Below, piece after piece: positions 6,081 through 33,045 of a stretch of DNA of 64,000 bases. The notes beneath the pieces were generated by a model. It ran no database searches, was not told the origin of the DNA, and saw only the letters and a program-made list of their open reading frames with translations. Position 1 is the stretch's first letter. Every line of letters starts with the position of its first letter. The DNA is from Candidatus Hydrogenedens sp. GTDB lineage: Bacteria; Hydrogenedentota; Hydrogenedentia; Hydrogenedentales; Hydrogenedentaceae. The stretch spans positions 1 to 64,000 of the forward strand of contig JBMFRC010000011.1 of assembly GCA_049968235.1 (NCBI GenBank), read 5' to 3'. The position numbers were made by a program, and so were the translations under genes.

Positions 6081-7649
6081 ATGATTATATCGCGTCGTTC
6101 GTTTTTAAGTTCGGTAGGATTGGGGGTGGGTCTTGTTTATGCTTTTCCTTCTTTAACGGAGGATTTCTCTACAATTCGCAGGTATCATGTTTCTATCTCT
6201 ATTGATGCATTAGAACATGAACCGGATTTGTTTGATATTTTTAAAAGGAGTGGTGTTTCTGCGGTCTGGATTGGTGGTTATTTTTATGGGCATTGGTATT
6301 ATCAACCGGAAGCAATTCGGGCATGGAAAAATAAATTTGAGTCCGCTGGAATATCTGCTTATGTAATTAATGTTCCACTGGGACATCCAGGTGATTCATT
6401 AGGCAGTTATTCAGGGGATGTACCGCTTACTCCGCCGACGCAATGGAAGCCGGGGGTTAGTTATGATATGAAAATGTATGCAGGGACTTCGCTTCATCCA
6501 CCTGCAACCGAAGAGAATGCAAAGGCTTTAGAGGTATTGAATAGTCATGACATTAAAAAGATTTTCCTGGATGATGATTTCCGTTTAGCACGAAGTCCGG
6601 GAATGATTGGTGGATGTTTCTGCAATGAGCATAAAGAGACTTTTTTGAATAAATATGGTTATGGAAACCCAGACTGGGAGGGTCTTATTGATGCGGTTCA
6701 GAAACGAAGTTTAACAAGAATTTTAAGGGAATGGATAGAGTTTACCTGTGATGAACTAACTACCTGTTTTCGCACATTGGAACAACGAGTTCGTGAACTT
6801 GAACTGGGTATTATGGTGATGTATATGGGGAGTGAGAAAGCGGGAATACGATTAAAAGATTATCAGGGATGCTTATTCCGTGTCGGGGAAGGTATGTTTA
6901 ATGACCATAGTTTTGGTAGTGAGAAAGGGAAATGCGATGAATTGTTTAGCGTTTTATTTCATCGTCGATTTGCAACACCTGAAAAAGCATTTAGCGAAAC
7001 GACTGCATTCCCAGCGGATAAATTATCTGCAAGAAACATGTGTGCGAAACTGGTTATCTCAACGATTGCAGATGTGCGGAATACAATGTTTATGAGTGGT
7101 ATTCAGCATTTTCCCAAAGGTCATTGGGATGTTCTTCTGGACGAGATGAAGAAACAAGCCCAATTTCATGAAACTATCGCAGGGCATAAACTTACAGGTC
7201 CGTTAAAACATTATTGGAGTGAGACAAGTAGATATGTTAGCGATGATAATCCATATAGTTTGTTTTTAGCGTTGGGAATTCCATTTGAGGTGGTTGAAGA
7301 ACCGACTAATAAAGGTTGGACTTTTGTTAGTGATTATGATACAGATATTCTCGCACAGAAGGAATGCGTTTATATCTCACGAAGAGAAAAGGAGCATTGT
7401 CTAGAAATCCCAGAAGATTTAAATGCTCTTTTCAAATTTAAGCAATCCATTCTTCCACAATTGAAGAATATTCCATATATTATTGAAGAAAAACCTGTAG
7501 TCTGTGCATGGTATCCAATAGCAAAAAAAGTCATGGTCTGGAATTTATCTGAAAATAGAGAAGATTTCACATTAAAGAGAGATGATAGAGAAATAAATTT
7601 CCAATTGTTGGGGCTGGAATCATCTCTATTAGATGACTTATCGATATAG
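6081..7649 (+). CDS. Tat-signal exported protein of unknown function. It is a candidate carbohydrate-active enzyme, given the sulfatase/DUF1559 neighbourhood.
   Basis: 522-aa ORF with a twin-arginine motif (MIISRRSFLSSVGLGVGLVYA). Start is placed at the ATG with the AGAGGGG ribosome-binding site. The tracked start at 6066 is a TTG. I recognise no domain. Confidence 0.55.
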   Translation: MIISRRSFLSSVGLGVGLVYAFPSLTEDFSTIRRYHVSISIDALEHEPDLFDIFKRSGVSAVWIGGYFYGHWYYQPEAIRAWKNKFESAGISAYVINVPLGHPGDSLGSYSGDVPLTPPTQWKPGVSYDMKMYAGTSLHPPATEENAKALEVLNSHDIKKIFLDDDFRLARSPGMIGGCFCNEHKETFLNKYGYGNPDWEGLIDAVQKRSLTRILREWIEFTCDELTTCFRTLEQRVRELELGIMVMYMGSEKAGIRLKDYQGCLFRVGEGMFNDHSFGSEKGKCDELFSVLFHRRFATPEKAFSETTAFPADKLSARNMCAKLVISTIADVRNTMFMSGIQHFPKGHWDVLLDEMKKQAQFHETIAGHKLTGPLKHYWSETSRYVSDDNPYSLFLALGIPFEVVEEPTNKGWTFVSDYDTDILAQKECVYISRREKEHCLEIPEDLNALFKFKQSILPQLKNIPYIIEEKPVVCAWYPIAKKVMVWNLSENREDFTLKRDDREINFQLLGLESSLLDDLSI

Positions 7650-7790
7650 GGAAAACTCTTCTCTATAAAAACACCCAATTATTCACCTAATTTTAATTAT
7701 TATAATTATTTATCCTTCTTAAAAATAATATTTACAAATATATCTATCTTAATTTTATATCATAATTATCCAATACTATTATTTTTATCC

Positions 7791-7819
7791 TTGACAAAAA
7801 TAAAATTATGTGTTATTAT
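7791..7819 (+). promoter_or_regulatory. Near-consensus sigma70 promoter (TTGACA-N17-TATTAT) upstream of DUF1559 gene copy 1.
   Basis: TTGACA at 7791-7796, a 17-nt spacer, and TATTAT at 7814-7819. The ATG at 7889 has an AAGGAGG Shine-Dalgarno sequence. Confidence 0.5.
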
Positions 7820-7826
7820 AGTTTTG

Positions 7827-7839
7827 GTAATCGTTATAC
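7827..7839 (+). promoter_or_regulatory. LacI/GalR-type operator-like palindrome GTAATCGTTATAC just downstream of the -10 element.
   Basis: Near-palindrome with a central CG. A nearly identical motif (GTAATCGTTTAC on the opposite strand, 31993-32004) sits at the same position relative to the promoter of the second DUF1559 paralog. Confidence 0.35.
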
Positions 7840-7888
7840 CAATATTTACTATTTATCATTTTTAATTTAACATTAAGGAGGCTTAAAT

Positions 7889-8815
7889 ATGCACAGAAAA
7901 GGTTTTACACTCATTGAACTGCTTGTCGTAATTGCCATTATTGGTATTCTTGCGGCAATATTGTTACCTGCTCTTGCTCGTGCCCGTGAGGCGGCTCGCC
8001 GTTCCAGTTGCCAGAATAATTTGAAACAGTGGGGATTGGTCTTTAAAATGTATTCCAATGAATCTAAAGGTGAAAGGTTTCCAAGATTATGTGCTTATTA
8101 CGGAAACCTGGTAAACTGTGATGTAGCTGGATTTCCTGTAACTCATACCAACACTCTAAGGATTGCTGTGGGTCCTTATGTACCTTCGATATTTCCTGAA
8201 TATTTAACAGACCCCAATATTACGCTATGTCCTTCGGATGCAGAAGCCAAACCTGGAGATTTAACAAATCCGATAACGAATCAATCGGAATTCTACCTTG
8301 CGTGCAATAATATGGAAAGAGGTATGTTCCGTATTGACACAAGTTATGCCTACTTAGGCTATGTATTAGACCGGTGTGAAGATACGGATGAACAAATGAA
8401 TTTAGGTATGTTCGACCCTGAGTACTCTGCTTATAATGGTCCTGCCCAATTTGTAATGCTTGCAGCACAGTTATATGCAGCAGCAGAACCTGAGATTCCG
8501 GCAAAAACAGACCAGGATATTACTGTCGGGACACCTTATGGTAATGCAGGTAGTGCAACAGTATATCGGCTTCGTGAAGGAATTGAACGATTTCTTATAA
8601 CGGATATTAATAATCCTGCAGCAACAGCACAGGCACAAAGCAGTGTGTACATTATGTTTGACCTCGTTGCAACAGCGACTCAGGGGTTTAACCATGTCCC
8701 CGGTGGTTGCAATGTGCTGTATATGGATGGGCATGTGGAATTTGTTCGCTATCCGGGTAAAGCACCTGTAAATCAAGGAATTGCCTGGGTCACAACTGCG
8801 GTTGGATTTTCGTAA
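7889..8815 (+). CDS. Prepilin-type N-terminal cleavage/methylation domain protein of the DUF1559 (H-X9-DG) family, copy 1.
   Basis: The N-terminus ([43 protein letters not shown]) is a classic type IV pilin-like methylation motif plus hydrophobic helix. The C-terminal [12 protein letters not shown] is the H-X9-DG signature region. Confidence 0.9.
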
Positions 8816-8840
8816 TCGGTGTATGATATAAAATGATATT

Positions 8841-10250
8841 ATGAAAAGACGCGATTTTATAAAAAGGGCAGTGTTAGGTTTACTAACCTGCCCTACTGTT
8901 TATGCTTCATCAACAAAGCAGGTAAATGTAAGCAGAACATCGAAGACCAAAGCCCCAAAGAATTTTATCTTTATTCTAATGGATGATATGGGCTATGACG
9001 ACCTCAGTTGTTATGGCAATACAAATTATACAACACCTAACCTTGACCAGATGGCGAAGGAAGGGGTTCGTTTTACTGATTTTTATGCCTGTGCCCCTGT
9101 ATGCACTCCGACGCGTGCCTCTGTATTGACGGGATGTTATGCACAGCGAGTTGGTCTACCCCGTGTGTTAGGAAACAATGCACGCACAGGAATTAATCCT
9201 AATGAAGTAACTCTTGCAGAAGCATTAAAAGGTGCAGGGTATAATACTGCTTGTTATGGGAAGTGGCATTTAGGGCATTTACCTCCGTTCCTACCACCAA
9301 ATCATGGTTTTGATGAATATTATGGTCTTCCCTATTCTAATGATATGGGTCCGGATGAAGATGAACCTAATGCACCTCCGTTACCTCTTATCGAAGGGAC
9401 TAAAACTATCGAAGAGAATCCTGACCAATCTAAACTTACTACAGCATATACGGACAGGGCTATTGATTTTATTAAACGAAATAAGGATAATAAATTCTTT
9501 TTATATTTACCCCATACGATGGTGCATGTACCTATTTATGTATCGAAGAAGTTTGAGGGAAAATCGGGTGCAGGGTTATATGGAGATGTAGTTCAAGAAA
9601 TAGATTGGTCTGTAGGCGAAATATTAAATACACTCAAAGAGACAGGTTTATCTGAGGATACGGTGGTCATTTTTACCTCCGATAATGGTCCGTGGTTAAT
9701 TTATGGCAATCATGCAGGAAGTGCAGGTCCATTACGGTGTGGTAAGGGAACTACTTTTGAAGGAGGGATGCGTGTTCCGTGTATTGCATGGTCACCGCAA
9801 TTCATTCCCTCCGGGAAAATTTGTAGCAAAGTAAGTGCTACTTTCGATTTTTATTCCACATTTATTCAACTCGCAAATGCAAATTACCCGAAAACGGATG
9901 TCCGTGATGGGAAAAATATATGGGATTTGTTGGTAAAACCGGACACTAACTCTCCTCATTCTTTCTTCTTGTATTATTTTCATAATGAATTACAAGCCAT
10001 TCGTCAGGGCAAATGGAAACTTCATCTTCCGCATAAATACCAGGAACTTGATTTTCCAGAGAATGACAGGAAACGTGGAAAATATAAAGAAGAAAAGATT
10101 GAGTTATCGCTGTATGATTTAGAAATTGATATTTCGGAAAAAACGAATCTTGCAAGCGAATATCCTGAAAGGGTAGAACAATTAAGAAATATCGCTCTTC
10201 TTTATGATAAGGATTTAAAAGCAAACATCCGTCCTTGTGGGAAAGCATAA
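8841..10250 (+). CDS. Sulfatase (arylsulfatase family) with a Tat/Sec signal.
   Basis: RRDFIKRAVLGL signal. The sulfatase N-terminal signature reads FIFILMDDMGYDDLSCYGN...CAPVCTPTRASVLTG, where C-x-P-x-R is the formylglycine motif. WHLG follows downstream. Confidence 0.9.
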   Translation: MKRRDFIKRAVLGLLTCPTVYASSTKQVNVSRTSKTKAPKNFIFILMDDMGYDDLSCYGNTNYTTPNLDQMAKEGVRFTDFYACAPVCTPTRASVLTGCYAQRVGLPRVLGNNARTGINPNEVTLAEALKGAGYNTACYGKWHLGHLPPFLPPNHGFDEYYGLPYSNDMGPDEDEPNAPPLPLIEGTKTIEENPDQSKLTTAYTDRAIDFIKRNKDNKFFLYLPHTMVHVPIYVSKKFEGKSGAGLYGDVVQEIDWSVGEILNTLKETGLSEDTVVIFTSDNGPWLIYGNHAGSAGPLRCGKGTTFEGGMRVPCIAWSPQFIPSGKICSKVSATFDFYSTFIQLANANYPKTDVRDGKNIWDLLVKPDTNSPHSFFLYYFHNELQAIRQGKWKLHLPHKYQELDFPENDRKRGKYKEEKIELSLYDLEIDISEKTNLASEYPERVEQLRNIALLYDKDLKANIRPCGKA

Positions 10251-10303
10251 AACTTTATCTGAGTTTTTTCTTGTATTCAATTTATTCTCTTTATTTAAAA
10301 ATC

Positions 10304-10341
10304 ATAACGGGCTATTGGAAGTAAATCCTATAGCCCGTTAT
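10304..10341. terminator. Bidirectional intrinsic terminator hairpin between the convergent sulfatase gene and the giant Ig-like protein gene.
   Basis: A 12-bp perfect inverted repeat (ATAACGGGCTAT ... ATAGCCCGTTAT) with a 14-nt loop. It is flanked by an A-rich run upstream and a T-rich run (TTTTCTATTCTAT) downstream. Confidence 0.6.
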
Positions 10342-10361
10342 TTTCTATTCTATATATCTAT

Positions 10362-13300
10362 TTATTTGCGTAAGCATGCCCTCTTGCGTATAACCGTCAT
10401 TACTCCAATAATCGAGGATATAAGAATCATTACAAGCAATCCTGTGCTTGTAGTTGCAGGAATGCCTTTTTCTACTTCCAGTGTAGCAATCGTAGATGTA
10501 ATCGTGTCGTTCTGTCCAGTTACAGAACTACCGCTATCCTGGACCACAACATAATATTGCCCTGAATCTTCATGTTGAGCTGGGTCAATTACCAGTAGAG
10601 GACCTATTGCACCGGGAATAACTTCCCATGCTTTTCCACCGACATTTCGATACCAGGTATAGGTCTTATCACCTAATCCACCGTTCACCTGAACAAACAT
10701 TTCCACCCGTTCACCCGAAGTGGCTCTATATTCAGGCAATAGGTCTTGAATGAAAGATAAATGCAATCCTACTTCTATATTTGCTTTACGAGATTGATAT
10801 AACATTGGAATATCATCTGTTACTTCAAGATAATATTTGTATGTTCCAACTGTCAACGAAGCAGTGTTAACCAATATCTCAAGGGTATTGCCAGCCACCA
10901 CTTCTGTTCCACCTCCGGGTAGGTCGCGTTTCCATTCATAATAGACAGGTGGTAACCCACCTACGAAGTCAGCTGTCAACCAGAATGATGGGTCATTAAT
11001 ATACAATGATTCATCTTCTGGTTGTAATGTAAATATGACTTCACTACTGGCTACACGGAGTAGTACGGGGTCAGATGTAAGTGTGGTATTCAAACCTGTA
11101 ACTGTAGAGGGTTGGTCAGAGATATATACCAGGTATTGATTTCCGTCATAGGTTACATCTACATTGGATAGGAGCAAAGTATTATTATTTACGCCTAACG
11201 AACCCATCCCGATTTGCCACCAATCATAATTATATGGTTCAAATCCACCTACTACTTCTACCTGGAATATTGCATCCTGCCCAGCATACAGATTTAAACT
11301 CTGCGGTTGCGTTACTATTTGTGGTGGGTCAGCCACCTTCACATTAGCAGTCCTCGATGTTACAGGCGGGTTCAATCCACCACTGGAATCGCTTACTATT
11401 ACATAGTAATCGCCCTCATCGGTAGCATCAGCAGAGCCTAAATCAAGCACATTATGCCCTTCTTCAGGACCCAATATACTTTCAGTGCCTTTGAACCATT
11501 CATAGTAGAATGGTGGTTGGCCACCCGTTACATTAGTAATTAATTGCACTGGTGATTCACCTGTATATGCGCGCACATCAGCAGGTCCCTGAACATTGAT
11601 AAAGTTTGTTATTGACAATTTAGCAATGCGAGATGTACCACTTTGCGGTGTGCCACTATCCGTTACCACACAACGATAATACGAATTTTGTAATCCAGAT
11701 AGATGCGCACCTTCCGCAATTTGTATTGTTAAAGTTGATTCATCTGCACCCGATACAATTGAACTTGCATGTAACGGATGCGGTCCATTTGTCAATGTTG
11801 TCCATGGACCACCCTGGTCGGTTGCATATTGCCATTCATAATTTATTGTTGGTATTCCACCTGTCCTTTGAACTGCAAATTGTGCTTGATTGCCCACATT
11901 CTCGATTACATCTGCAGGATGTTCTGTGTCAACTACAAGATTTTCATACACATTTAACACGCCTGCATTTGCTGGATATGCATCCGGATCCGGTCCACTA
12001 TCAACTGCTATACAACGATATGTACCTGTATCACCTACAACAGTGCCATTTATTGTAAACACGGAATTACTAGCACCGCTAACTATTGAAACTCGACCGC
12101 CTAAGTCGCCATCATTTAATGTTACATATCCACTTCCTGTATCCCTTTGCCATGTAAATGTATATGGAGTGGTTCCACCGGAAGCGGTTACAGTTACACT
12201 GTAATTTGAACCCTCATATTGGTTCACCGGACTTGGCGTCGGGTCAGTAATCACAAATGGATTTGTTATCAAAAGTGTAGCATTTTGAGAATCTTCTGTG
12301 GATGGAGCTCCACGATTTTCAGAGTCTGTTACGCGACACTTATATTGACCGGCATCAATTAGACCTAAATTCGATATTGTCAAAGTTGATGTAGAACCTA
12401 CATTGTTTATAGATACTATCGCACCGGAACCTGATGGATGTGGTCCATCCACCAATGGGGTTGTATCATTCCATAACCATTCATAAGTATATGGGGCATA
12501 ACCTCCAGAAATTGTAACACTGAATTGTGCAGAGCCTCCTGTATTCCGATGAATACTTTGCGGTTGTGCGGATATTGCCACTACAGGTTGAACATCTAAA
12601 CTTGAAGGTCCGGCGAATACGGTTTGTCCGCCATCTGAAATGTTGATTGCGGTACCATAGTAATTACCAATCATAGTCTGGTCGAGATTGGGAATATTCA
12701 CAGGATTGGAACCTGAGCCTACAGGAGTTAAACTTCCGCTTCTATCTATATACCACTGATATAAGTAATTGGAACCTGAACCACCGATAAATTTGAAACT
12801 ATAGATAACATTCTCACCAATATATTTTCTTACTGGTGTTGTCAGGTCTACCACAGTTCGCATTACATTGGTATTGATTGTGATAGTTTTTGTTCCTGAA
12901 ATTACCTGATTGGGTGGAGGAGGCGTATCGTTCGGGTCAGTAACAACACAACGATATTGACCATCTTCCTGACCGGGGATAGCATACTCTACGGTCAATT
13001 GATTAGTTGTCGCACCACTTATAACTGTTATTATAGGAGTATTATTGGGACCATCTGAGCCATTCACATTTCTTGGATAACTACCATTAGAAATATTTAC
13101 CCAGGAACCACCTTTAAATATCTGCCATTGATATTGATACGGCGGACCATATCCACCACTGGCGTTAACGGTCATCCGGAATGAACGCCCAAAACCGATG
13201 TATCCATCTGTTAAATTGTTTGCAGTTGGACTGCTAAAATCATCTTCACTAAATGGTGAATCTCTCGGTGGGTCAAACTCTTGTATTGCTATATTACTCA

Positions 13301-15095
13301 CGGCAAGTGGGTTAGGCCAGACATCAATATAATTTGTCTTTGTTTCTGTATCTTCTCCATATTGAGTAACAACTCTTAACCGAACAGTATAAACACCTAC
13401 AGAATTGTATGTCCATTGGGGATTTGTAGGTGTTGTGTAATGAGCATCATCATTACCATCACCATTGAAATCCCAATACCAGTCGGTTATCTGAGTAGTA
13501 TTTTCCGGTAACTGGTCTGGAATAGATGAATCTGTAAATGTAACAGTCAAAGGATATTGTCCCTGGGTAGGTGCTGCTGAAAAATCTGCTGTTGGTGGAG
13601 TATGCACTACAATATAATTTGTTTTTGTCTCATTGTCATTTCCTTCGGCTGTTTGAACAGTCAGAGATACTGTATATCTACCTGCAGTATTATACTGATG
13701 ACTCGGATTCTGCTGATTACTTGTTCCACTATCACCGAAGTTCCATGCCCATGTTGTTTCTGCCCACAAGCCAAAAGTATCCGATGAATCAGTAAACTGA
13801 ACGGATTGTCCTGCTAATATCTCCACAGGTGTCGCAGAGAAATCTGCTACAGGTGTCGCTACATTTTCATACGCTCCCATATCTACAGCAGAGCCATTTT
13901 TCCTCTGGAAATTACGAATATCAACTCGCCCGGGTGCTAGAGGTGGTTGAACAAGACCATCAGCCCCTGTATCTAAACATGGGGATATTGGTGATGGGAA
14001 AGTAACTGTCAAACGAAAATCATTATTCCCTGGATTCCGGAATAATGGGTCCGAATTAATATTTCCAGTTCCTACATGTCCTCCCTGTACATCAGAATAC
14101 TGTACATCTGCATTTACATATCCAAGGCCGGGTCTAAAGGTTCTAATATGAGGATTTGACGGTACAGGATTATTCCACAATATAGTGTTATAAATTTTTG
14201 GGAAATTAACTCCACATCCACTATTCATTATAGTATTAGCATTATATAATTGAGGATTAGACAAATTAGCCGAAGTGTTATTATAAAAGGTACAATTAGT
14301 AATATATGTCTCATTTCCTATTTCTACATTTGAGGAATTGATTCCATTGTTAAAAATTCCAGCACCGCCACGAATCGGGGAAACGCCGGTATCTACTGTT
14401 TCATTGCACGTATTGCCACGGAAGACGCAATCATGGATTAATGCACTTGCCTTGTAAATATTAGAACCAACAGTCCCGGACATGTTTGCAATCGCACCAC
14501 CTGCTGTTGCAGAAACATTATCGTAGAAAACACAATTACCTATCACTGGTGCTGATAACCAGTTATATATGCCTGCGCCACGCCAGGTATGGTAATCTCC
14601 TGCAACGCCCGAAGCACGACCACCACGTATGTGGAAGCCATCAATTACTACATCCGTATTGGGACCACTTCCCTTTCCTATGACGATTACATGATATGCA
14701 TTCGTGCCACCTCTTGAAGTTCTTCCATCAATAGTCGTTACATATTGTGAAGGTCTTCTCTGGTCTCGAGAAGTCTCTGTTCCCTTAAATCCACCATAAA
14801 GATGGACATTATCTTCCATAACCAATGAGCCATCCACCAAAGCAGGTGCACCCCAAGTTGCTGTTCTTAGTTCATCGTAATTCCCCTGAGCCACCCAAAC
14901 CTCCACAGGATTTCCAGGAGATGCTTGTGCATTAGCAGTGTCAATTCCTTCCTGAATTGTGCGAAATGCTTTAGCCCATGAACTACCATCCGGGGATGGG
15001 TCTGTGCTTGCTTTATTCACATATACTACTGCAAAAGCGTAGTTTGTCAGCAAGCATAAAACCAATAAAGACCACTTTAACTTGCTTTTCATCAT
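10362..15095 (-). CDS. Giant (~1577 aa) secreted adhesin-like protein. It has an N-terminal right-handed beta-helix region, two PKD domains, then more than 8 Ig-like domains with the G-x-Y-(R/K)-C-x-V-(T/S)-D motif. The C-terminus looks like a sorting signal: IPATTSTG, then a TM helix, then a basic tail.
   Basis: Signal peptide MMKSKLKWSLLVLCLLTNYAFA, with an AGGAGA Shine-Dalgarno sequence before the internal ATG. Beta-helix-type repeats (GNCVFYDNVSATAGGAI, HDCVFRGNTC, NCTFYNNTSA). PKD motifs (WNFGDSG...SHQYNTAGRYTVSLTV; WYWDFNGDGNDDAHYT...YNSVGVYTVRLRV). Recurrent Ig-like motifs (GQYRCVVTD, GQYKCRVTD, GTYRCIAVD, YYRCVVTD). C-terminus is GIPATTSTGLLVMILISSIIGVMTVIRKRACLRK. Confidence 0.8.
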   Translation of the reverse strand: MMKSKLKWSLLVLCLLTNYAFAVVYVNKASTDPSPDGSSWAKAFRTIQEGIDTANAQASPGNPVEVWVAQGNYDELRTATWGAPALVDGSLVMEDNVHLYGGFKGTETSRDQRRPSQYVTTIDGRTSRGGTNAYHVIVIGKGSGPNTDVVIDGFHIRGGRASGVAGDYHTWRGAGIYNWLSAPVIGNCVFYDNVSATAGGAIANMSGTVGSNIYKASALIHDCVFRGNTCNETVDTGVSPIRGGAGIFNNGINSSNVEIGNETYITNCTFYNNTSANLSNPQLYNANTIMNSGCGVNFPKIYNTILWNNPVPSNPHIRTFRPGLGYVNADVQYSDVQGGHVGTGNINSDPLFRNPGNNDFRLTVTFPSPISPCLDTGADGLVQPPLAPGRVDIRNFQRKNGSAVDMGAYENVATPVADFSATPVEILAGQSVQFTDSSDTFGLWAETTWAWNFGDSGTSNQQNPSHQYNTAGRYTVSLTVQTAEGNDNETKTNYIVVHTPPTADFSAAPTQGQYPLTVTFTDSSIPDQLPENTTQITDWYWDFNGDGNDDAHYTTPTNPQWTYNSVGVYTVRLRVVTQYGEDTETKTNYIDVWPNPLAVSNIAIQEFDPPRDSPFSEDDFSSPTANNLTDGYIGFGRSFRMTVNASGGYGPPYQYQWQIFKGGSWVNISNGSYPRNVNGSDGPNNTPIITVISGATTNQLTVEYAIPGQEDGQYRCVVTDPNDTPPPPNQVISGTKTITINTNVMRTVVDLTTPVRKYIGENVIYSFKFIGGSGSNYLYQWYIDRSGSLTPVGSGSNPVNIPNLDQTMIGNYYGTAINISDGGQTVFAGPSSLDVQPVVAISAQPQSIHRNTGGSAQFSVTISGGYAPYTYEWLWNDTTPLVDGPHPSGSGAIVSINNVGSTSTLTISNLGLIDAGQYKCRVTDSENRGAPSTEDSQNATLLITNPFVITDPTPSPVNQYEGSNYSVTVTASGGTTPYTFTWQRDTGSGYVTLNDGDLGGRVSIVSGASNSVFTINGTVVGDTGTYRCIAVDSGPDPDAYPANAGVLNVYENLVVDTEHPADVIENVGNQAQFAVQRTGGIPTINYEWQYATDQGGPWTTLTNGPHPLHASSIVSGADESTLTIQIAEGAHLSGLQNSYYRCVVTDSGTPQSGTSRIAKLSITNFINVQGPADVRAYTGESPVQLITNVTGGQPPFYYEWFKGTESILGPEEGHNVLDLGSADATDEGDYYVIVSDSSGGLNPPVTSRTANVKVADPPQIVTQPQSLNLYAGQDAIFQVEVVGGFEPYNYDWWQIGMGSLGVNNNTLLLSNVDVTYDGNQYLVYISDQPSTVTGLNTTLTSDPVLLRVASSEVIFTLQPEDESLYINDPSFWLTADFVGGLPPVYYEWKRDLPGGGTEVVAGNTLEILVNTASLTVGTYKYYLEVTDDIPMLYQSRKANIEVGLHLSFIQDLLPEYRATSGERVEMFVQVNGGLGDKTYTWYRNVGGKAWEVIPGAIGPLLVIDPAQHEDSGQYYVVVQDSGSSVTGQNDTITSTIATLEVEKGIPATTSTGLLVMILISSIIGVMTVIRKRACLRK

Positions 15096-15249
15096 ATACT
15101 GTCTCCTCATAGTGTTTTTATTATAGATTAAAACGCATTTATTAGTTATTTCACTTTTCTTTACATTTTAATGATAATTTTTTATCTTGTCTAAATTATA
15201 ACATGTAAAGCAATAAAAATCAAGAATATTTAATACTATATTTATATAA

Positions 15250-15285
15250 ATATAGTGGGCTGAAAATTATTCAACCCACTATATT
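15250..15285 (-). terminator. Putative intrinsic terminator hairpin downstream of the LRR/InlB-repeat giant gene.
   Basis: Inverted repeat AATATAGTGGG(C)TG ... CA(A)CCCACTATATT of about 12 bp, followed on the minus strand by an AU-rich tract. Confidence 0.4.
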
Positions 15286-15305
15286 ATCTTTATCAAGAAG
15301 ATTCA

Positions 15306-18300
15306 TTATGGTTGAGTACCGGGACAATAACCATCTTCACTACCTTCACACGGGTAATAACCACCGGAATTGAAGAATTGTATTAGACGGAGCAATTCAC
15401 TCAAAGATATTACCCAATCTTGTGGATTATAGTCAGAAGCATGTGGGTTACAGGAATGGTCGCCGGGTCCGGGAGCATATCCATCTTCACCCTGTGGGTC
15501 GCAGTGATATTCATTAAAGTTGAAGAACTGAATAACACGCAATAGTTCCGTTAAATTAATCTTTCCATCTCCATTCTGGTCAGCATTGTGAGGAGGTATT
15601 TCTCCTTCTGGAGTCCCTTCTGGAGTCCCTTCTGGAGTCCCTTCTGGAGTTCCTTCTGGTGTCCCTTCTCCTTCAGGTGGAATTTGAATAAAGATAACAC
15701 CGATTGTTCTGTTCCTGTCCATAGGAACCGTGATTTCAGGTTGCTCAATATTCGCAATTCCTTCTGTATCACCTGTCCATGCACCGAACATCCAGCCGTT
15801 AGCAGGCTGAGCAATAACAGTCTGAGTTTGACCCTCCAGAAATAGATATTCGTTACCTGGAAGTGGAGATGTAGTTCCCTGTCCTTCAACGACATTCAGC
15901 AGTAATTTATAATATACCTGCGGAGCAAATTTCGCTACTAATTGCATGTCTTCACTCAAAACTGTACCAAAAATAGGATTTGATGTAATTAGTGTGTTAC
16001 CGGAATACCACCCTTTGAATACCTGACCTTCACCGGGAACTGCTGTTAATTGAAGCGGGAAATTATTTGATAGTAGATATACATCTGCTAATAAAATTTC
16101 TTCTTCGCCTATAAATACAGTTCCATCGCCTTCTATCTGGAAATCAAATTTCCTACCTTCATTGTCAAAATGCGCTATCATATCATAATGTCCGTTAACA
16201 GTAACTGTTGCGGAATACCAATAAACCCAAGTTGTCTCGGGATTATTATTAGGGTTCTTTATCAATTCCCATCCACCGAAATAATCTTCGGTTTCCGCAT
16301 ATAAACTTAATTGTTTGCCATTAATATAGCAATACGCTCCTGGTCTTGGGGATGTTTCTCCGGTTCCGTTTCCGGCAGTAGTAATGTTCACATTCCAATC
16401 ACAAGGTTCAAATACCGCTATAATCGATAGGCTTTCCTGAACTTGAAGTATTAACACATCATCTGTGCTTATAATTTCATTATCATCAGTTATCCAGTGT
16501 TTTAACGCCCATCCTGAATCAGGATATGCTATATAGTATATCCATTCTCCACCTATATATCCGTAGATACCAGGGACGGGATTTGTTGTTCCATTACCCT
16601 GTGTACTTAACTCTATTGTATATACAGCATCTACGAAACGGGCTACAAGATTACGGTCAGAAGTTACCTGGAAAGAATAAAATGGCCATTCATTTACTAA
16701 TTCGTTGTTTTCATACCAACCCGCAAATGCTTTTCCTGAATCAGGAATGGCTGTAAAGAATGCCCATTGTCCATCAAAGTAGTAATAATTTCCCGGTACT
16801 GGGTTAGTGGTTCCTGGTCCGTCCACAGATATTACTACGGTATAGTCCGTCTCTCTGAAATTTGCAGTTATTACTTTATTTGCATTCATCACAACCTGTA
16901 TAGGATTATCTTGTGGATTTGCTCCTCCTATATCACCACTCCAACCATTAAATACCCAACCCTCCTCAGGATTTGCTGTAATAAGAACAACCTGACCTTC
17001 TGTCTTCTGATATATACCTGGGACGGGGTCAGTCGTTCCTGAACCATTTACATTTATAGTTAAAGTATAGGTTGGTACAGATGTAAAAACGGCACGAATC
17101 GTCATATCTTCTGTTATTTCTACATTTATAGGATTATCTGTTCCTAAATTATTACTATTACCATCTTCCCAATGGTCAAACAGATAACCTGCATCTGGAA
17201 ATGCTGAAATGCTAACGAACGAACCCTGAGCATATTGATATGTCCCTTGATATGGAGATGTAAACCCGTTCCCTATTACTTCTATTTTTAATTGATAGCA
17301 TTGATTGGAGAATATAGCACCAACTGTCTTGTCACTATCCATTACTATATTAGCAAAAGGAGAAGAGCCGAAAGACTGGGCATCTTCTGTCCATCCTCCA
17401 AAGCATGAACCTGTATCCGGTAATGCATATAAATATACCCATTGATTATCTTTAAATGAATAATTACCATTTCCATCATAGAATGGGATAATGGTACCTG
17501 TACCTGTGTTGGATGGGTCAAATGCAAATGTTAATGTATATGTGCCAGGGACAAAAACAGCCTTCACTAAAATATTTTCCTGAACATTATCAAAGAGATA
17601 ACTATAACTATCTGTTAAAAATACATATCCTGCTTTTGCGTTCTCATCCCAAATTTCCCAGTGGTCAAAAGCATAGCCACTATCTGCTTGAGGATATGCT
17701 AAAATAATAAAATCACTATTGATTTCGACTGTATTTACTCCTACTTGAGGTAAAACCTTTCCAATACCTTCCACTTCAATGGTTACGGTTACCTCACATA
17801 CTCCTTCACGAGTTACTACACCACTAGGTTTCACTTTTTGAACCAGTTGGTCGACTAAATAACAAAGTTCCGTAGGAACGGGATTGTACCTAAGGTCAAT
17901 ATAGTCACCATCACCAATTCCTTCGTTGTCTAACAGAAACCCAAAATTCTCTATGTTATTATTGTCCAGATAAACATATTTTAATGCGGTATAGTTTTTT
18001 AAAGGACTTATATCAGAAACCACGTTATTACTTAGATTTAACATTTCTAGAGTTCCTACAGGAGATCCTGAATTGCTTAACCCATATATATTGTTAATTT
18101 GATTCATTGACGCATCTAATGCTACAAGATTAGGCATCATTTCTATACCGGAAAGATTGGTTAATGAATTATCACTTACATTCAACCCTATCAAAGAATT
18201 AAAGGTAAATGGATCTTTTACTGTGAACAATGAAGGACCAATATTATTCCCAGGCAAATTTGCAATCGTTAAACCGTTTAATCCTACAAGACTGTTGATA

Positions 18301-19268
18301 TTTGTAATACCTGTATAGGCACAAAACAACAAATATAAATTACTCCAATTTTGAACAACACCTATATCATTAATGCCAAGCCCTACTAAGAATGCAAAAC
18401 GGGGATTTAACCCGCTAAGATTTGAAAGATCTGTTATATTTTCTTCAGCTAAACCTAATAATCCTGGGTTATCCTCATCTACATAAGTTATATTTGTCAT
18501 GTTGGCTACATAAGTATCCAATTCTGTTTGTCCCAACCCACAATTAGCGGATAAAAATGAATTCAAGTTCTGGTCTACATTTCCCAGAGGGGACCAATCC
18601 GTAATTGGATTACTTCCTAACCATAACTGAGTTAGATTATTCAGATTGTTTAGAAAACTTATATTTGTAACATTCTCCAATCCCCCTATACTTAGTATTT
18701 CTAAATTTACTAAAGAATTTAATACAGCAAGGTCAGCGTCATCAAGATTATTCGCTCCCGTAACAAATGGGTCAAATTCATCATATAAAAATACCGTACC
18801 AAATCCTAAATTTAATCCTACTAAATTTGTTAATGTCGATAAGGCTGAGATATCCGAAATCTGGTTCATTCCTATATCTAAATACTGTAGTCCTGTAAGT
18901 CCTGACAAACTTGAAATATCTGTTATCTGATTCTTTCCTAATAACAAATATATTAAATTCGTTAAACTACTTAATGGTGATACATTTGTTATTTCATTCG
19001 AAACAAGATTTAATACGGTTAAAGAAGTACACGCCTCTAAACCTGTTAAATCGGTAATCCCAAGGTAGGAGGCATCCAATTTAGTAAAATCAGGGTTTGC
19101 TAATTCGGTATCTTGTGGAGGGTTACTCAAAGGGCTTCCGACCTGGTCTTCATATTGTATCTGAACTGCTGACAACAGATTCGGGTCATTAAATATTACA
19201 TCTGCCGAAAAAACATTCAGAGAAAACAGTGCAAAAGCCATCACAACGACTAAAGATTGGATTTTCAT
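15306..19268 (-). CDS. Giant (1320 aa) secreted protein. It has N-terminal internalin-like leucine-rich repeats, about 9 divergent InlB B-repeat-like domains, a PEGTPEG linker and a conserved Cys-containing dockerin/EF-hand-like C-terminal module.
   Basis: Signal peptide MKIQSLVVVMAFALFSLNVFSA, with AAGGAGATG as Shine-Dalgarno. LRRs read LTVLNLVSNEITNVSPLSSLTNLIYLLLGKNQITDISSLSGLTGLQYLDIGMNQISDISAL. Repeated modules follow the pattern Y(T/K)L.I.V.G.GTT.P.PG.Y....G..V.L.A.P..G..F.GWSGD. C-terminal region is PEGEGTPEGTPEGTPEGTPEGTPEGEIPPHNADQNGDGKINLTELLRVIQFFN...YHCD...EDGYAPG...CNPHASDYNPQDWVISLSELLRLIQFFNSGGYYPCEGSEDGYCPG. Confidence 0.85.
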   Translation of the reverse strand: MKIQSLVVVMAFALFSLNVFSADVIFNDPNLLSAVQIQYEDQVGSPLSNPPQDTELANPDFTKLDASYLGITDLTGLEACTSLTVLNLVSNEITNVSPLSSLTNLIYLLLGKNQITDISSLSGLTGLQYLDIGMNQISDISALSTLTNLVGLNLGFGTVFLYDEFDPFVTGANNLDDADLAVLNSLVNLEILSIGGLENVTNISFLNNLNNLTQLWLGSNPITDWSPLGNVDQNLNSFLSANCGLGQTELDTYVANMTNITYVDEDNPGLLGLAEENITDLSNLSGLNPRFAFLVGLGINDIGVVQNWSNLYLLFCAYTGITNINSLVGLNGLTIANLPGNNIGPSLFTVKDPFTFNSLIGLNVSDNSLTNLSGIEMMPNLVALDASMNQINNIYGLSNSGSPVGTLEMLNLSNNVVSDISPLKNYTALKYVYLDNNNIENFGFLLDNEGIGDGDYIDLRYNPVPTELCYLVDQLVQKVKPSGVVTREGVCEVTVTIEVEGIGKVLPQVGVNTVEINSDFIILAYPQADSGYAFDHWEIWDENAKAGYVFLTDSYSYLFDNVQENILVKAVFVPGTYTLTFAFDPSNTGTGTIIPFYDGNGNYSFKDNQWVYLYALPDTGSCFGGWTEDAQSFGSSPFANIVMDSDKTVGAIFSNQCYQLKIEVIGNGFTSPYQGTYQYAQGSFVSISAFPDAGYLFDHWEDGNSNNLGTDNPINVEITEDMTIRAVFTSVPTYTLTINVNGSGTTDPVPGIYQKTEGQVVLITANPEEGWVFNGWSGDIGGANPQDNPIQVVMNANKVITANFRETDYTVVISVDGPGTTNPVPGNYYYFDGQWAFFTAIPDSGKAFAGWYENNELVNEWPFYSFQVTSDRNLVARFVDAVYTIELSTQGNGTTNPVPGIYGYIGGEWIYYIAYPDSGWALKHWITDDNEIISTDDVLILQVQESLSIIAVFEPCDWNVNITTAGNGTGETSPRPGAYCYINGKQLSLYAETEDYFGGWELIKNPNNNPETTWVYWYSATVTVNGHYDMIAHFDNEGRKFDFQIEGDGTVFIGEEEILLADVYLLSNNFPLQLTAVPGEGQVFKGWYSGNTLITSNPIFGTVLSEDMQLVAKFAPQVYYKLLLNVVEGQGTTSPLPGNEYLFLEGQTQTVIAQPANGWMFGAWTGDTEGIANIEQPEITVPMDRNRTIGVIFIQIPPEGEGTPEGTPEGTPEGTPEGTPEGEIPPHNADQNGDGKINLTELLRVIQFFNFNEYHCDPQGEDGYAPGPGDHSCNPHASDYNPQDWVISLSELLRLIQFFNSGGYYPCEGSEDGYCPGTQP
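15603..15672. repeat. In-frame 12-nt tandem repeat (CCTTCTGGAGTC, about 5.5 copies) encoding the PEGTPEG linker.
   Basis: tccttctggagtcccttctggagtcccttctggagtcccttctggagttccttctggtgtcccttctcc read directly. It is coding, not CRISPR-like, because there are no unique spacers. Confidence 0.7.
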
Positions 19269-32061: not shown

Positions 32062-33045
32062 ATGAAGAAAAAAGGTTTCACACTCATCGAACTGCTGGTC
32101 GTTATTGCAATCATTGGCATCCTCGCTGCAATATTGTTACCAGCACTGGCACGGGCACGCGAAGCGGCAAGACGCTCCAGCTGCCAGAACAATTTAAAAC
32201 AATGGGGTCTCGTTTTCAAAATGTATTCTAACGAGGCGAAGGGAGAACGGTTTCCTCCCATTCAGGCAGGTGGTTATAAGAATGTAAATGGGCAACTTAA
32301 ACCTGTTTTAGATGCAGGACCCAATGTATTTGTTCTGTATCCGGAATATCTGACGGACCCCATGATTATCTTTTGTCCATCGGATGCAGAATTAGGTCAA
32401 TCTATTGCCAAAGCACATCTCAATGGGGATGTTAATCAAGATTGGTGTATTGGTTATGCGGATAGCAATGGTGGAAATTGTGCGCGTGCCATTGACGCGA
32501 GTTATGGCTATTTAGGTTGGGTTTTAGATAAAGGGAATTGTCCCCCGCAAGACCCCGTATCTACGCTTAGCAGTTTTACCTATTTAGGCACGATTGCGTC
32601 ATTCCTTGGTGTAACAATTGACATGAACACCGAAGTTTCTACACAAGTTGGTTCAGCACTGGATTATTTGGTTCAACAAATATTGCCATTATTGAGTGGA
32701 AGTAGTATTCCCAATGGAATTCTTCCCATAGCTGACAATGATATACCTGTTCCTAATGGTGTAGGAAACGGTGGTGGTTCTACTGTATATCGTCTTCGTG
32801 AAGGTATTGAACGTTTCTTGATCACAGACATTAACAATCCAGCAGCATCAGCACAAGCCCAAAGTTCCGTATGGATTATGTTTGACCAGTTATCAACCAA
32901 TCCTGCGGCATACAACCATATTCCCGGAGGTTCAAATGTGTTATACATGGATGGTCATGTGCAGTTCCAGAGATATGGTGAATGTGAACCTGCTCCTGTG
33001 AATAAGCCTATGGCAGTCCTTGTGGGTATTTTGACCTCCAATTAG
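32062..33045 (+). CDS. Prepilin-type N-terminal cleavage/methylation domain protein of the DUF1559 (H-X9-DG) family, copy 2. It is a paralog of 7889..8815.
   Basis: The first ~60 aa ([54 protein letters not shown]) are identical to copy 1, although the nucleotides diverge synonymously. The C-terminus ([34 protein letters not shown]...[11 protein letters not shown]) is conserved and the middle segment is divergent. Confidence 0.9.

What the first reader, a model, noticed from the sequence alone, without database searches (positions are those of the whole stretch)
15306..15700. Unrelated giant surface proteins share a PEG-repeat linker plus a conserved ~100-aa Cys-containing dockerin/EF-hand-like C-terminal module: a candidate new C-terminal sorting or anchoring tag, or a cohesin-dockerin-like system
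The LRR/InlB-repeat protein (15306..19268) and the EF-hand-array protein (54456..57824) have completely different N-terminal cargo domains. Both end with a PEGTPEG-type linker followed by a closely alignable tail. The tail pattern is [EF-hand-like loop]-ELLRVIQ(F/L)FN-x3-YHC-x4-EDGYAPG-x5-C-x-PH-x-SDY-x-PQDW-x-I-x-L-x-ELLRLIQFFN-xGGY-x2-C-x3-EDGYC-xG-stop, with four conserved Cys. A third cargo type, the GLUG/PASTA protein at 1..951, enters the same PEG linker at the window edge. Identical C-terminal tags on unrelated secreted cargo are the hallmark of dedicated sorting systems such as T9SS CTD, PEP-CTERM/exosortase, LPXTG/sortase and dockerin/cohesin. The first half of the module is a canonical dockerin/EF-hand loop (DQNGDGKINLTELL) in one protein and degenerate in the other. 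This argues for a dockerin-derived module that may no longer need Ca.
Basis: partly seen in the sequence, partly recalled or inferred. Interest (0 to 1): 0.85.

Follow-up and report, generated by a model that had tools for sequence, protein, structure and literature searches.

The report
Dockerin-like docking module of Hydrogenedentota
A ~95-residue domain with calcium-binding loops and conserved cysteines sits behind a flexible (P)EG linker on dozens of unrelated secreted proteins per genome in the uncultured phylum Hydrogenedentota; it resembles the dockerins that assemble cellulosomes, has no Pfam or NCBIfam entry, and most likely tethers its carriers to a shared, still unknown partner.

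Summary
Two unrelated secreted proteins in the window, an LRR/InlB-repeat protein and an EF-hand-array protein, end in a (P)EG linker plus a ~95-aa tail that is 62% identical between them (E 1e-41). A third carrier runs off the window edge inside its linker.

- **Family size:** 2945 clusters at 50% identity, with at least 38 carriers in one MAG. It lies mainly in Hydrogenedentota, with divergent copies in CPR bacteria.
- **Cargo:** 83 different Pfam families among 71 carriers, most with signal peptides.
- **Curation:** nothing in Pfam or NCBIfam reaches its cut-off.
- **Anatomy:** an internal duplication (hhalign E 1e-30) of a unit made of an EF-hand-type Ca loop, one helix and a beta-hairpin. 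The Ca-ligand positions and two cysteine pairs are near-invariant.
- **Position:** the module also occurs N-terminally, internally, in tandem and alone, and it has no hydrophobic segment. It is therefore not a cleaved C-terminal sorting signal.

My best reading is a Ca-dependent, probably disulfide-braced docking or anchoring module of dockerin-like design whose partner is unknown. It is a new variant of a known kind and of moderate interest.

The parts
15309..15590 (-). Module of the LRR/InlB-repeat carrier (residues 1227-1320, HNADQNGDGKINLTELLRVIQFFN ... EDGYCPGTQP)
   Evidence: Translation. Family profile hit over positions 4-96. AF2 model with pLDDT 94.8.
15603..15683 (-). (T)PEG linker of the LRR carrier (IPPEGEGTPEGTPEG...)
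   Evidence: 61% of 94 carriers have at least 50% E+G in the 40 aa before the module.
15306..19268 (-). Carrier 1: signal peptide, LRR region, seven InlB B-repeat-like domains, linker, module
   Evidence: Pfam. Ortholog P0153 from the Candidatus Hydrogenedens cluster is 76% identical overall and about 93% identical in the tail.
54459..54743 (-). Module of the EF-hand-array carrier (residues 1028-1122, HSADRNFNWKFEIGELLRVIQLFN ... EDGYCGGLK)
54762..55166 (-). 135-aa (x)xEG linker before the module of carrier 2. A second, internal linker lies at 55527..55721.
54456..57824 (-). Carrier 2: signal peptide, repeated EF-hand-containing units, linkers, module
   Evidence: Pfam EF-hand_1/5/6/7/8.
3..587 (-). 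3' part of a third carrier: PASTA domain, then a PEGEG linker (3..95) that runs off the window. The module is expected just beyond the edge.
   Evidence: PASTA E 1.9e-17. The closest relatives P0186, P0249, L046 and L003 all end in the module.
562..945 (-). 5' part of the same third gene, in another reading frame (frameshift or assembly error)
   Evidence: It matches the segment of the same homologs that lies just upstream of the 3..587 match.

Best explanation
**What it is.** The tail is an independently folding, extracytoplasmic docking or anchoring domain. It is not a cleaved sorting signal. It arose by duplication of a ~45-residue unit. Each unit has an EF-hand-type Ca2+ loop (H-x-x-D-x-N-x-D-x-x-I-x-L-S-E), a single amphipathic helix (ELLRVIQFFN) with no entering helix, as in a dockerin 'F-hand', and a beta-hairpin (GYHC-x3-EDGY-x-PG).

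**Inferred chemistry.** Two disulfides are inferred, C1-C2 and C3-C4, formed after Sec export.

**Proposed mechanism.**
- The carrier is exported through Sec using its N-terminal signal peptide (shown by sequence).
- The module folds around Ca2+ and is oxidised (inferred).
- It stays on the mature protein (inferred).
- At the end of a long, acidic, flexible (P)EG stalk it binds one common, highly conserved partner (inferred).
- Dozens of different adhesin-like and enzymatic cargos would thus be tethered to the same cell-associated structure, as dockerins tether enzymes to cohesins.

**Open point.** The partner is not identified. It could be a cohesin-like or other receptor protein, or an envelope glycan.
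For: - **Real, selected domain.** The family holds 2945 clusters at E<=1e-3 and 1143 at E<=1e-30. In the ortholog pair window/P0153 the tail is about 93% identical against 76% for the whole protein.
- **Internal duplication.** hhalign of the two halves gives probability 99.9%, E 1e-30, over 42 columns.
- **Ca-loop ligand positions, 341 distinct instances.** Loop 1: D8 100%, N/D10 93%, D/N12 97%, E19 100%. Loop 2: D57 100%, D/N62 97%, E69 99%, with a one-residue insertion.
- **Cysteines.** C34 99% and C51 98%. C85 85% and C93 84%; this second pair is missing, wholly or in part, in most divergent copies. This fits C1-C2 and C3-C4 pairing and an oxidising compartment.
- **Cargo.** 83 Pfam families occur in 71 carriers, including InlB repeats, Ig-like domains, beta-helix, PASTA, peptidases, FGE-sulfatase and LRR. 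163 of 273 M-start carriers have a signal-peptide-like N-terminus.
- **Position.** The module is at the extreme C-terminus in 93 of 95 carrier ORFs from genomes. It also lies right after the signal peptide on sulfatases, FGE-sulfatases and an LRR protein, internally (L041) and in tandem.
- **'Choice of anchor' logic.** The NCBIfam choice-of-anchor Q domain occurs in module carriers (2 of 71). It also occurs in the window's neighbouring gene 10362..15110, which ends instead in a TM helix plus RKR. In the screen the only C-terminal TM segments after the module belonged to the divergent tandem-module proteins P0128, P0129 and P0133; the 11 other late hydrophobic segments it flagged lie upstream of the module and barely pass the cut-off.
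- **Cohesin in the lineage.** One carrier (L041) combines a Pfam Cohesin domain (35.9 bits, cut-off 24.1) with the module.
Against: - No partner is identified. Only one cohesin was found among about 1050 local proteins, and no conserved non-carrier neighbour looks like a receptor.
- Sequence-level relatedness to dockerins is not detectable beyond the Ca loop.
- Ca binding, disulfides, surface location and retention of the module on the mature protein are all inferred, not shown.
- Stand-alone 'signal peptide + module' proteins (P0022, P0046, P0049, P0082) are not what a pure tether predicts.
Confidence: 0.5

Rival explanations
1. Substrate-targeting, Ca-dependent glycan- or polymer-binding module, like a CBM or lectin. 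It would bind an environmental polymer such as sulfated EPS rather than tether the protein to the producer cell.
For: - Near-invariant aromatic and His residues: W63 99%, Y58 96%, Y82 98%, H5, H33, H54.
- N- or C-terminal placement, tandem copies and stand-alone forms are typical of CBMs.
- Carriers include sulfatases, FGE-sulfatases, beta-helix proteins and a PHB depolymerase.
- Hydrogenedentota MAGs are described as degraders of sulfated polysaccharides (PMC10866078).
Against: - Many carriers have no enzyme domain at all (LRR, Ig, InlB repeats, EF-hand arrays).
- The fold matches no CBM or lectin in the PDB searches.
- The module substitutes for a TM anchor in the choice-of-anchor Q relatives.
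Confidence: 0.17
2. Homotypic self-association module. Modules bind each other, so carriers cross-link into a surface coat. Membrane-anchored tandem-module proteins would act as the base.
For: - Proteins made only of 2-3 modules plus a C-terminal TM anchor exist: P0128, P0129, P0133.
- N-terminally anchored tandem-module proteins occur in CPR bacteria: P0143 from Buchananbacteria, and P0122.
- The two halves show near-perfect internal symmetry of conserved polar residues: R22/R72, Q25/Q75, N28/N78.
- No heterologous partner was found.
Against: - No direct evidence of self-binding exists.
- The tandem, anchored forms are divergent and probably come from other phyla, not from Hydrogenedentota.
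- The symmetric conserved residues may be purely structural.
Confidence: 0.12
3. Dedicated secretion or sorting signal, analogous to the T9SS CTD. An outer-membrane translocon would recognise it and then remove it or covalently attach it.
For: - The same tail sits on dozens of unrelated Sec-exported cargos per genome, at the extreme C-terminus in 93 of 95 genomic carriers.
- Its size, about 95 aa, is similar to a T9SS CTD.
Against: - It occurs N-terminally right after the signal peptide, internally, in tandem and alone.
- It is a Ca-loop/helix fold, not a beta-sandwich.
- It has no TM helix or basic tail.
- No NCBIfam sorting-domain model hits it.
- It is also present in CPR bacteria, which by my own knowledge lack an outer membrane.
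Confidence: 0.08
4. Partner-less Ca-dependent folding or stability cap. An extracellular EF-hand pair would only rigidify or protect the end of long repetitive proteins once they meet extracellular Ca2+.
For: - The Ca-loop positions and the cysteines are conserved.
- Weak EF-hand Pfam hits occur in 9-15 of 44 members.
- A Cys-less relative, P0289, has two canonical EF loops.
Against: - The module is separated from its cargo by long flexible linkers of up to 135 aa, so it cannot stabilise the cargo fold.
- Conservation of many presumably exposed positions across paralogs with unrelated cargo argues for a common ligand.
Confidence: 0.08

Closest known systems
Type I dockerin (Pfam PF00404), including non-cellulosomal dockerin-like modules (Peer et al. 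2009, PMC3035643; the 'planctosome' proposal in Planctomycetes, PMC6461901)
   Same: - Tandem duplication of a Ca-loop plus single-helix 'F-hand' with no entering helix.
- Usually at the C-terminus of secreted multidomain proteins, behind a linker.
- Many paralogous carriers per genome with unrelated cargo.
- Dockerins are the best PDB structural matches.
- The window tail gives a sub-threshold Dockerin_1 hit (20-21 bits against 22.9).
   Different: - The unit is about 45-49 residues, not about 22. Each helix is followed by a conserved beta-hairpin (GYHC...EDGYxPG).
- It has four conserved Cys.
- Loop 2 carries a one-residue insertion (D-Y-N-P-Q-D-W).
- Profile-profile comparison with true dockerins aligns only the loop.
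- The family is far more conserved across paralogs than I recall dockerins being (my own knowledge, not tested here).
- No cohesin-rich scaffoldin is identified.
Extracellular disulfide-stabilised EF-hand pairs, such as the SPARC/BM-40 EC domain (my own knowledge, not tested)
   Same: - EF-type Ca loops working outside the cytoplasm.
- Bracing by disulfides.
- One loop with a one-residue insertion.
   Different: - Those are four-helix EF-hand pairs. Here each unit has only the exiting helix plus a hairpin.
- No sequence match was found.
C-terminal sorting domains: T9SS CTD, PEP-CTERM/exosortase, LPXTG/sortase
   Same: One conserved tail on many unrelated exported cargos, mostly at the extreme C-terminus.
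   Different: - No motif + TM helix + basic tail.
- Not a beta-sandwich.
- Not restricted to the C-terminus.
- No NCBIfam sorting model hit.
Non-covalent cell-surface anchoring modules: SLH domains, or the Ca-dependent LPS-binding domain of S-layer protein RsaA (my own knowledge)
   Same: - A modular, non-cleaved domain at either end of surface proteins.
- It would attach many different cargos to one envelope polymer.
- Some are Ca-dependent.
   Different: - Unrelated fold and sequence.
- Binding to any envelope polymer is untested here.

Membership tests
Dockerin (type I, PF00404) | Match to the curated Pfam model above its gathering score | tested here: not met
   The window tail scores 20.2-21.3 bits against a cut-off of 22.9. 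The second window tail gives no hit. Only 1 of 44 family members matches at E<=0.01.
Dockerin (type I, PF00404) | Detectable homology to bona fide dockerin sequences | tested here: not met
   hhalign of the 44-sequence family profile against CelS (1daq) and Cel9 (4fl4_A) dockerins aligns only 16 loop columns at 8% probability. A profile search of all PDB sequences finds no dockerin.
Dockerin (type I, PF00404) | Two tandemly duplicated segments, each a Ca-binding loop followed by one helix (F-hand, no entering helix) | tested here: met
   The two halves are homologous (hhalign 99.9%, E 1e-30). DSSP on the AF2 model shows only helices 16-28 and 66-77, each preceded by a loop. Each unit is about twice as long as in dockerins and adds a beta-hairpin.
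Dockerin (type I, PF00404) | 12-residue EF-hand-type loop with D/N at positions 1, 3 and 5 and D/E at position 12 in both segments | tested here: inconclusive
   Loop 1 meets it (D 100%, N/D 93%, D/N 97%, E 100%). Loop 2 keeps D57, N59 (63%), D/N62 (97%) and E69 (99%) but has 13 residues. Some divergent relatives have a canonical loop 2 (P0133, P0289). Ca binding itself is not testable here.
Dockerin (type I, PF00404) | Dockerin fold | tested here: inconclusive
Dockerin (type I, PF00404) | Binds a cohesin module | not testable with these tools
   One carrier (L041) holds a Pfam Cohesin domain. No other cohesin was found in 80 loci, the window and the fetched proteins. A cohesin query in the big protein search gave only 3 hits, none of them named.
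PEP-CTERM / LPXTG / other exosortase- or sortase-type sorting signals | Short motif, then a hydrophobic TM helix, then a basic cluster at the extreme C-terminus | tested here: not met
   The tails end ...EDGYCPGTQP and ...EDGYCGGLK with no hydrophobic stretch. No NCBIfam sorting model hits them. For contrast, the neighbouring gene 10362..15110 does end in a TM helix plus RKR.
T9SS C-terminal domain | Beta-sandwich CTD, always at the extreme C-terminus | tested here: not met
   The model is loop-helix-hairpin twice. The module also occurs N-terminally, internally and in tandem. No NCBIfam or Pfam T9SS model hits it.
Canonical EF-hand pair (PF13499) | Two helix-loop-helix motifs and a match to the EF-hand models | tested here: not met
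   Only loop 1 gives sub-threshold EF-hand hits (for example 22 bits against 25.9), in 9-15 of 44 members. The model has no entering helices.

The most novel reading that the evidence does not exclude
Hydrogenedentota, and in a simpler form some CPR bacteria, would run a phylum-wide, cellulosome-like surface display system built on a previously undescribed dockerin-like module. Dozens of adhesin-like and enzymatic proteins per cell would be plugged through it, in a Ca-dependent way, into one conserved receptor. That receptor would be either a non-canonical cohesin or something new, or the modules would bind each other. This would be a new protein-assembly principle for an uncultured phylum.
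Probability: 0.3. Interest if true: 0.75.

Novelty: new variant of a known kind. Interest (0 to 1): 0.55.

Why it matters
- **Scale and gap in annotation.** At least 2945 clusters at 50% identity carry a domain that no Pfam or NCBIfam model reaches its cut-off on. No hit was found in three Hydrogenedentota genome papers or in a full-text search of the held library. A curated model would annotate the ends of many 'hypothetical' giant proteins in MAGs.
- **Access to the exoproteome.** It marks a large part of the secreted or surface proteome of an uncultured phylum: dozens of carriers per genome. This gives a handle to define that proteome and to fish for the common partner.
- **Extending the dockerin idea.** If it is a dockerin derivative, dockerin-type assembly would reach into a new structural variant outside Firmicutes-type cellulosomes, alongside proposals such as the 'planctosome'.
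- **Practical warning.** The (P)EG-coding repeats before the module break assemblies. Most database copies are 'partial' proteins, so carrier counts from MAGs are underestimates.

Tried and rejected
- **Sorting-signal reading.** Rejected on position variety, the lack of a TM segment, the fold, and no NCBIfam sorting hit.
- **Standard type I dockerin.** Rejected by the Pfam cut-off, by hhalign against two verified dockerins and by a PDB profile search.
- **Recent duplication or gene conversion of the two window tails.** Rejected on codon usage and 58% nucleotide identity.
- **Partner next to the carriers.**
  - All-against-all clustering of 763 ORFs from 80 loci plus the window found only generic recurrent neighbours (sensor kinases, GFO/IDH/MocA oxidoreductases, sulfatases) and further carriers.
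  - Pfam scans of 32 window ORFs found no cohesin and no dedicated secretion genes.
- **Cohesin hunt.**
  - jackhmmer and a 4-sequence cohesin HMM against about 1050 local proteins found only L041 itself.
  - The large protein search with the L041 cohesin returned only 3 hits, none of them named.
  - The look-up of encoding contigs has no record of the exact window protein.
  - The terminator scan after the stop codon found nothing.
- **Literature.** No paper in the library links Hydrogenedentota with dockerin, cohesin, EF-hand or adhesins.
Full report
**1.

The minus-strand ORF 15306..19268 encodes 1320 aa. It has a signal peptide, leucine-rich repeats, seven InlB B-repeat-like domains, the linker IPPEGEGTPEG(TPEG)4, and then a ~95-aa tail.

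The minus-strand ORF 54456..57824 encodes 1122 aa. It has a signal peptide, repeated EF-hand-containing units, a 65-aa and a 135-aa (x)xEG linker, and a tail of the same kind.

The cargo parts share no Pfam family. Only 28 of the 60 identical residues use the same codon, and nucleotide identity is 58%. The similarity is therefore kept by selection on the protein, not left by a recent duplication.

A third gene at the window start (3..587, minus strand) has a PASTA domain (E 1.9e-17) and enters a PEGEG linker that runs off the window. Its best relatives (P0186, P0249, L046, L003) all end in the module. Two caveats apply: no GLUG hit reached threshold, and the gene is split between two frames near 562..587.

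**2. It is a large, uncurated domain family**

No Pfam or NCBIfam model reaches its cut-off on either tail. The first loop of protein 1 gives sub-threshold EF-hand and Dockerin_1 hits. The second tail gives nothing.

- A two-sequence profile found 352 homologs among 384 candidates. The ones that carry a source name are almost all from Candidatus Hydrogenedentes/Hydrogenedens MAGs, often several from one MAG.
- A 44-sequence profile (A2) read against 1.84 billion representatives found 2945 clusters at E<=1e-3, 2307 at E<=1e-10 and 1143 at E<=1e-30.
The best 80 loci come from 16 assemblies. Most are labelled Hydrogenedentota. Several are labelled 'uncultured Nitrospirales' and one 'delta proteobacterium'; I could not check those labels.
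- One MAG, JAKQOG01, supplies 27 of those 80 loci and at least 38 carrier ORFs.
- Divergent copies occur in CPR bacteria: P0143 in Candidatus Buchananbacteria and P0275 in Candidatus Paceibacterota.
- The window's LRR carrier has an ortholog, P0153, whose cluster members are named Candidatus Hydrogenedens sp. It is 76% identical overall but about 93% identical in the tail. The module therefore evolves more slowly than its cargo.

**3. Anatomy**

Across 341 distinct instances nearly every position is conserved.

- *Duplication.* The domain is a tandem duplication. hhalign of profile positions 4-51 against 52-96 gives probability 99.9%, E 1e-30, over 42 columns, with one extra residue in the second loop.
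- *Unit design.* Each unit reads H-x-x-D-x-[ND]-x-[DN]-x-x-I-x-L-S-E-L-L-R-x-I-Q-F-[FY]-N-x-G-G-Y-H-(x)-C-x3-E-D-G-[YF]-x-P-G.
- *Loop 1.* It is a canonical 12-residue EF/dockerin loop: D8 100%, N/D10 93%, D/N12 97%, E19 100%.
- *Loop 2.* D-Y-N-P-Q-D-W...E keeps D57 (100%), D/N62 (97%), W63 (99%) and E69 (99%) around a one-residue insertion. Some divergent relatives have a canonical loop here (P0133, P0289).
- *Cysteines.* C34 and C51 are 98-99% conserved and invariant even in the divergent set. C85 and C93 are 84-85% conserved, and this second pair is missing, wholly or in part, in most divergent copies. This fits C1-C2 and C3-C4 disulfides.
- *Model.* AlphaFold2 with the 44-sequence alignment gives pLDDT 94.8 and pTM 0.84. 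The order is loop, helix 16-28, hairpin 31-33/41-43, loop, helix 66-77, hairpin 81-83/91-93. Each Ca loop is followed by a helix but not preceded by one. That is the 'F-hand' arrangement of dockerins rather than a four-helix EF-hand pair.

**4. Comparison with dockerins and other folds**

By sequence the link fails:

- Dockerin_1 matches 1 of 44 members at E<=0.01.
- A profile search of all PDB sequences finds no dockerin.
- hhalign against two verified type I dockerins (CelS 1daq, Cel9 4fl4_A) aligns only 16 loop columns at 8% probability.

I therefore call it dockerin-like in design and probably in core fold. I do not file it as a member of the dockerin family. It differs in three ways: a unit twice as long, a conserved beta-hairpin after each helix, and the conserved cysteines.

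**5. Who carries it, and where in the protein**

- *Cargo.* Among 71 full-length carriers, 83 different Pfam families occur. They include InlB B-repeats, bacterial Ig-like domains, right-handed beta-helix, PASTA, CHRD, PMP repeats, P-domains, FGE-sulfatase, LRR, M14 and trypsin peptidases, NHL, FG-GAP and GLUG. NCBIfam adds a PHB depolymerase, an M6 protease and others.
- *Clustering.* With the module masked, 102 carriers from loci fall into 58 single-linkage clusters.
- *Export.* 163 of 273 M-start carriers have a hydrophobic N-terminal segment like a signal peptide.
- *Linker.* 61% of carriers have at least 50% Glu+Gly in the 40 residues before the module.
- *Position.* In genomic loci 93 of 95 carrier ORFs end 27-39 residues after the second helix motif. 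The module is not confined to the C-terminus, though:
  - It sits directly after the signal peptide ('...AAAQ[FY]HSADT...') on sulfatases (P0241, L054), FGE-sulfatase proteins (P0247, P0100) and an LRR protein (P0208).
  - It is internal in L041 and L067_1.
  - It is present in 2-4 copies in P0121, P0123, P0124 and P0126.
  - It forms stand-alone 'signal peptide + module' proteins of 115-145 aa, such as P0022, P0046, P0049, P0074 and P0082.
  - Divergent proteins consist of 2-3 modules plus a C-terminal TM anchor (P0128, P0129, P0133).

**6. What this says about function**

A cleaved or processed C-terminal sorting signal of the sortase, exosortase or T9SS type is not compatible with these placements. 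It also does not fit the absence of any hydrophobic segment or the fold.

The pattern instead fits a modular binding domain held away from its cargo on a flexible acidic stalk and recognising one common, highly conserved partner. Three further observations point to tethering:

- The NCBIfam 'choice-of-anchor Q' domain is defined by its occurrence with alternative surface anchors. It is found in module carriers (2 of 71, best E 4.6e-12). It is also found in the window's neighbouring gene 10362..15110, which ends instead in 'GIPATTSTG + TM helix + RKRACLRK'.
- Relatives of that neighbouring protein in other loci carry the module.
- In the screen the only C-terminal TM segments after the module belonged to the three divergent tandem-module proteins. 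The 11 other late hydrophobic segments it flagged lie upstream of the module and barely pass the hydropathy cut-off.

The conserved cysteines and Ca loops fit a periplasmic or extracellular, oxidising, Ca-containing compartment. Surface exposure itself is not shown.

**7. The partner is unknown**

One carrier, L041:8174-12076, has a Pfam Cohesin domain (residues 394-502, 35.9 bits against a cut-off of 24.1). An EG linker and an internal module follow it, then a beta-helix. This shows cohesins exist in this lineage and can sit next to the module, as in adaptor scaffoldins.

However, jackhmmer and a four-sequence cohesin HMM found no other cohesin among about 1050 local proteins. The large-database query returned only three unnamed hits. 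No non-carrier gene family recurs next to carriers except generic ones. The window itself holds ordinary chromosomal genes and no dedicated machinery.

Since scaffoldin genes need not lie next to dockerin genes, this does not exclude a cohesin-type receptor. It also gives no support beyond L041. An envelope glycan or homotypic binding remain open.

**8. Verdict**

The 'same tail on many unrelated exported cargos' prediction and the dockerin/EF-hand-like design are borne out. The 'C-terminal sorting tag' and 'no longer needs Ca' parts are not. It is not a standard dockerin, and a cohesin partner is unproven.

My best explanation, at confidence about 0.5, is a retained, Ca-dependent, probably disulfide-braced docking or anchoring module of dockerin-like architecture. 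Rivals are:

- a substrate-targeting glycan-binding module (0.17);
- a homotypic assembly module (0.12);
- a secretion or sorting signal (0.08);
- a partner-less stability cap (0.08).

I found no description of it. The three Hydrogenedentota genome papers in the library were either missed by the full-text search or searched directly for dockerin, cohesin and EF-hand, with no hit. Non-cellulosomal dockerin/cohesin systems in other uncultured groups are a known idea (PMC3035643; PMC6461901; PMC10066038).

I rate it a new variant of a known kind, with interest 0.55. It is a big, clean, unannotated family with a confident fold and a testable role, but no function is demonstrated.

Noticed in passing
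window 10362..15110 (-): A 1582-aa PKD/Ig_3/SprB protein with a choice-of-anchor Q domain ends in 'EKGIPATTSTG + TM helix + RKRACLRK'. The ortholog L023:10529-15277 ends in 'EKGIPASTNTG + TM + RKRVKIQS'. No NCBIfam sorting-domain model hits it, so it may be an unrecognised exosortase-like C-terminal signal.
   Followed up: partly
window 3..587 and 562..945 (-): The third carrier gene is split over two reading frames near 562..587. Both pieces match adjoining parts of the same homologs (L046, P0186, P0249). This is a frameshift, either a pseudogene or an assembly error.
   Followed up: partly
L041:8174-12076 (+): A 1301-aa protein with a signal peptide, beta-sandwich repeats, a Pfam Cohesin domain, an EG linker, an internal module, another EG linker, a beta-helix region and the start of an FGE-sulfatase-like domain. 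This is a scaffoldin- or adaptor-like layout.
   Followed up: partly
L023 (CAZJTZ010000028.1), about 6281..16989: It has the same gene order as window 8841..19268: an LRR-type carrier, then the 1583-aa TM-anchored protein, then a sulfatase. It therefore comes from a close relative of the window's organism.
   Followed up: partly
P0128, P0129, P0133; P0143, P0122: These are divergent proteins made of 2-3 tandem modules plus a membrane anchor. P0143 is from Candidatus Buchananbacteria (CPR). Most of these copies lack the second Cys pair.
   Followed up: partly
hits in general: Most database copies of carriers are 'partial' and start inside the EG/PEG linker. The repeat-coding DNA evidently breaks metagenome assemblies, so carrier counts per MAG are underestimates.
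   Followed up: no
window 15250..15284: A 10-bp inverted repeat (ATATAGTGGG / CCCACTATAT) with a 15-nt loop lies about 20 nt after the stop codon of the LRR carrier, followed by A/T-rich sequence. The terminator scan did not call it.
   Followed up: partly
L013:9875-10960 (+): A 362-aa protein ends in 'VPTVNAAG + TM helix + RRR'. It gives sub-threshold hits to IPTL-CTERM and midcut-by-XrtH models, so exosortase-type tags probably coexist with the module in these genomes.
   Followed up: no
window 7889..8815 and 32062..33045 (+): Two N_methyl + DUF1559 (SBP_bac_10) pilin-like proteins. To my knowledge this family is typical of Planctomycetes-like genomes. One lies next to a sulfatase.
   Followed up: no
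P0261, P0262: The nearest database relatives of the L041 cohesin are small cohesin proteins ending in PEP-CTERM-like tails (VPEP + TM + RRR). They would be cell-anchored single cohesins. Their organism is unknown.
   Followed up: no
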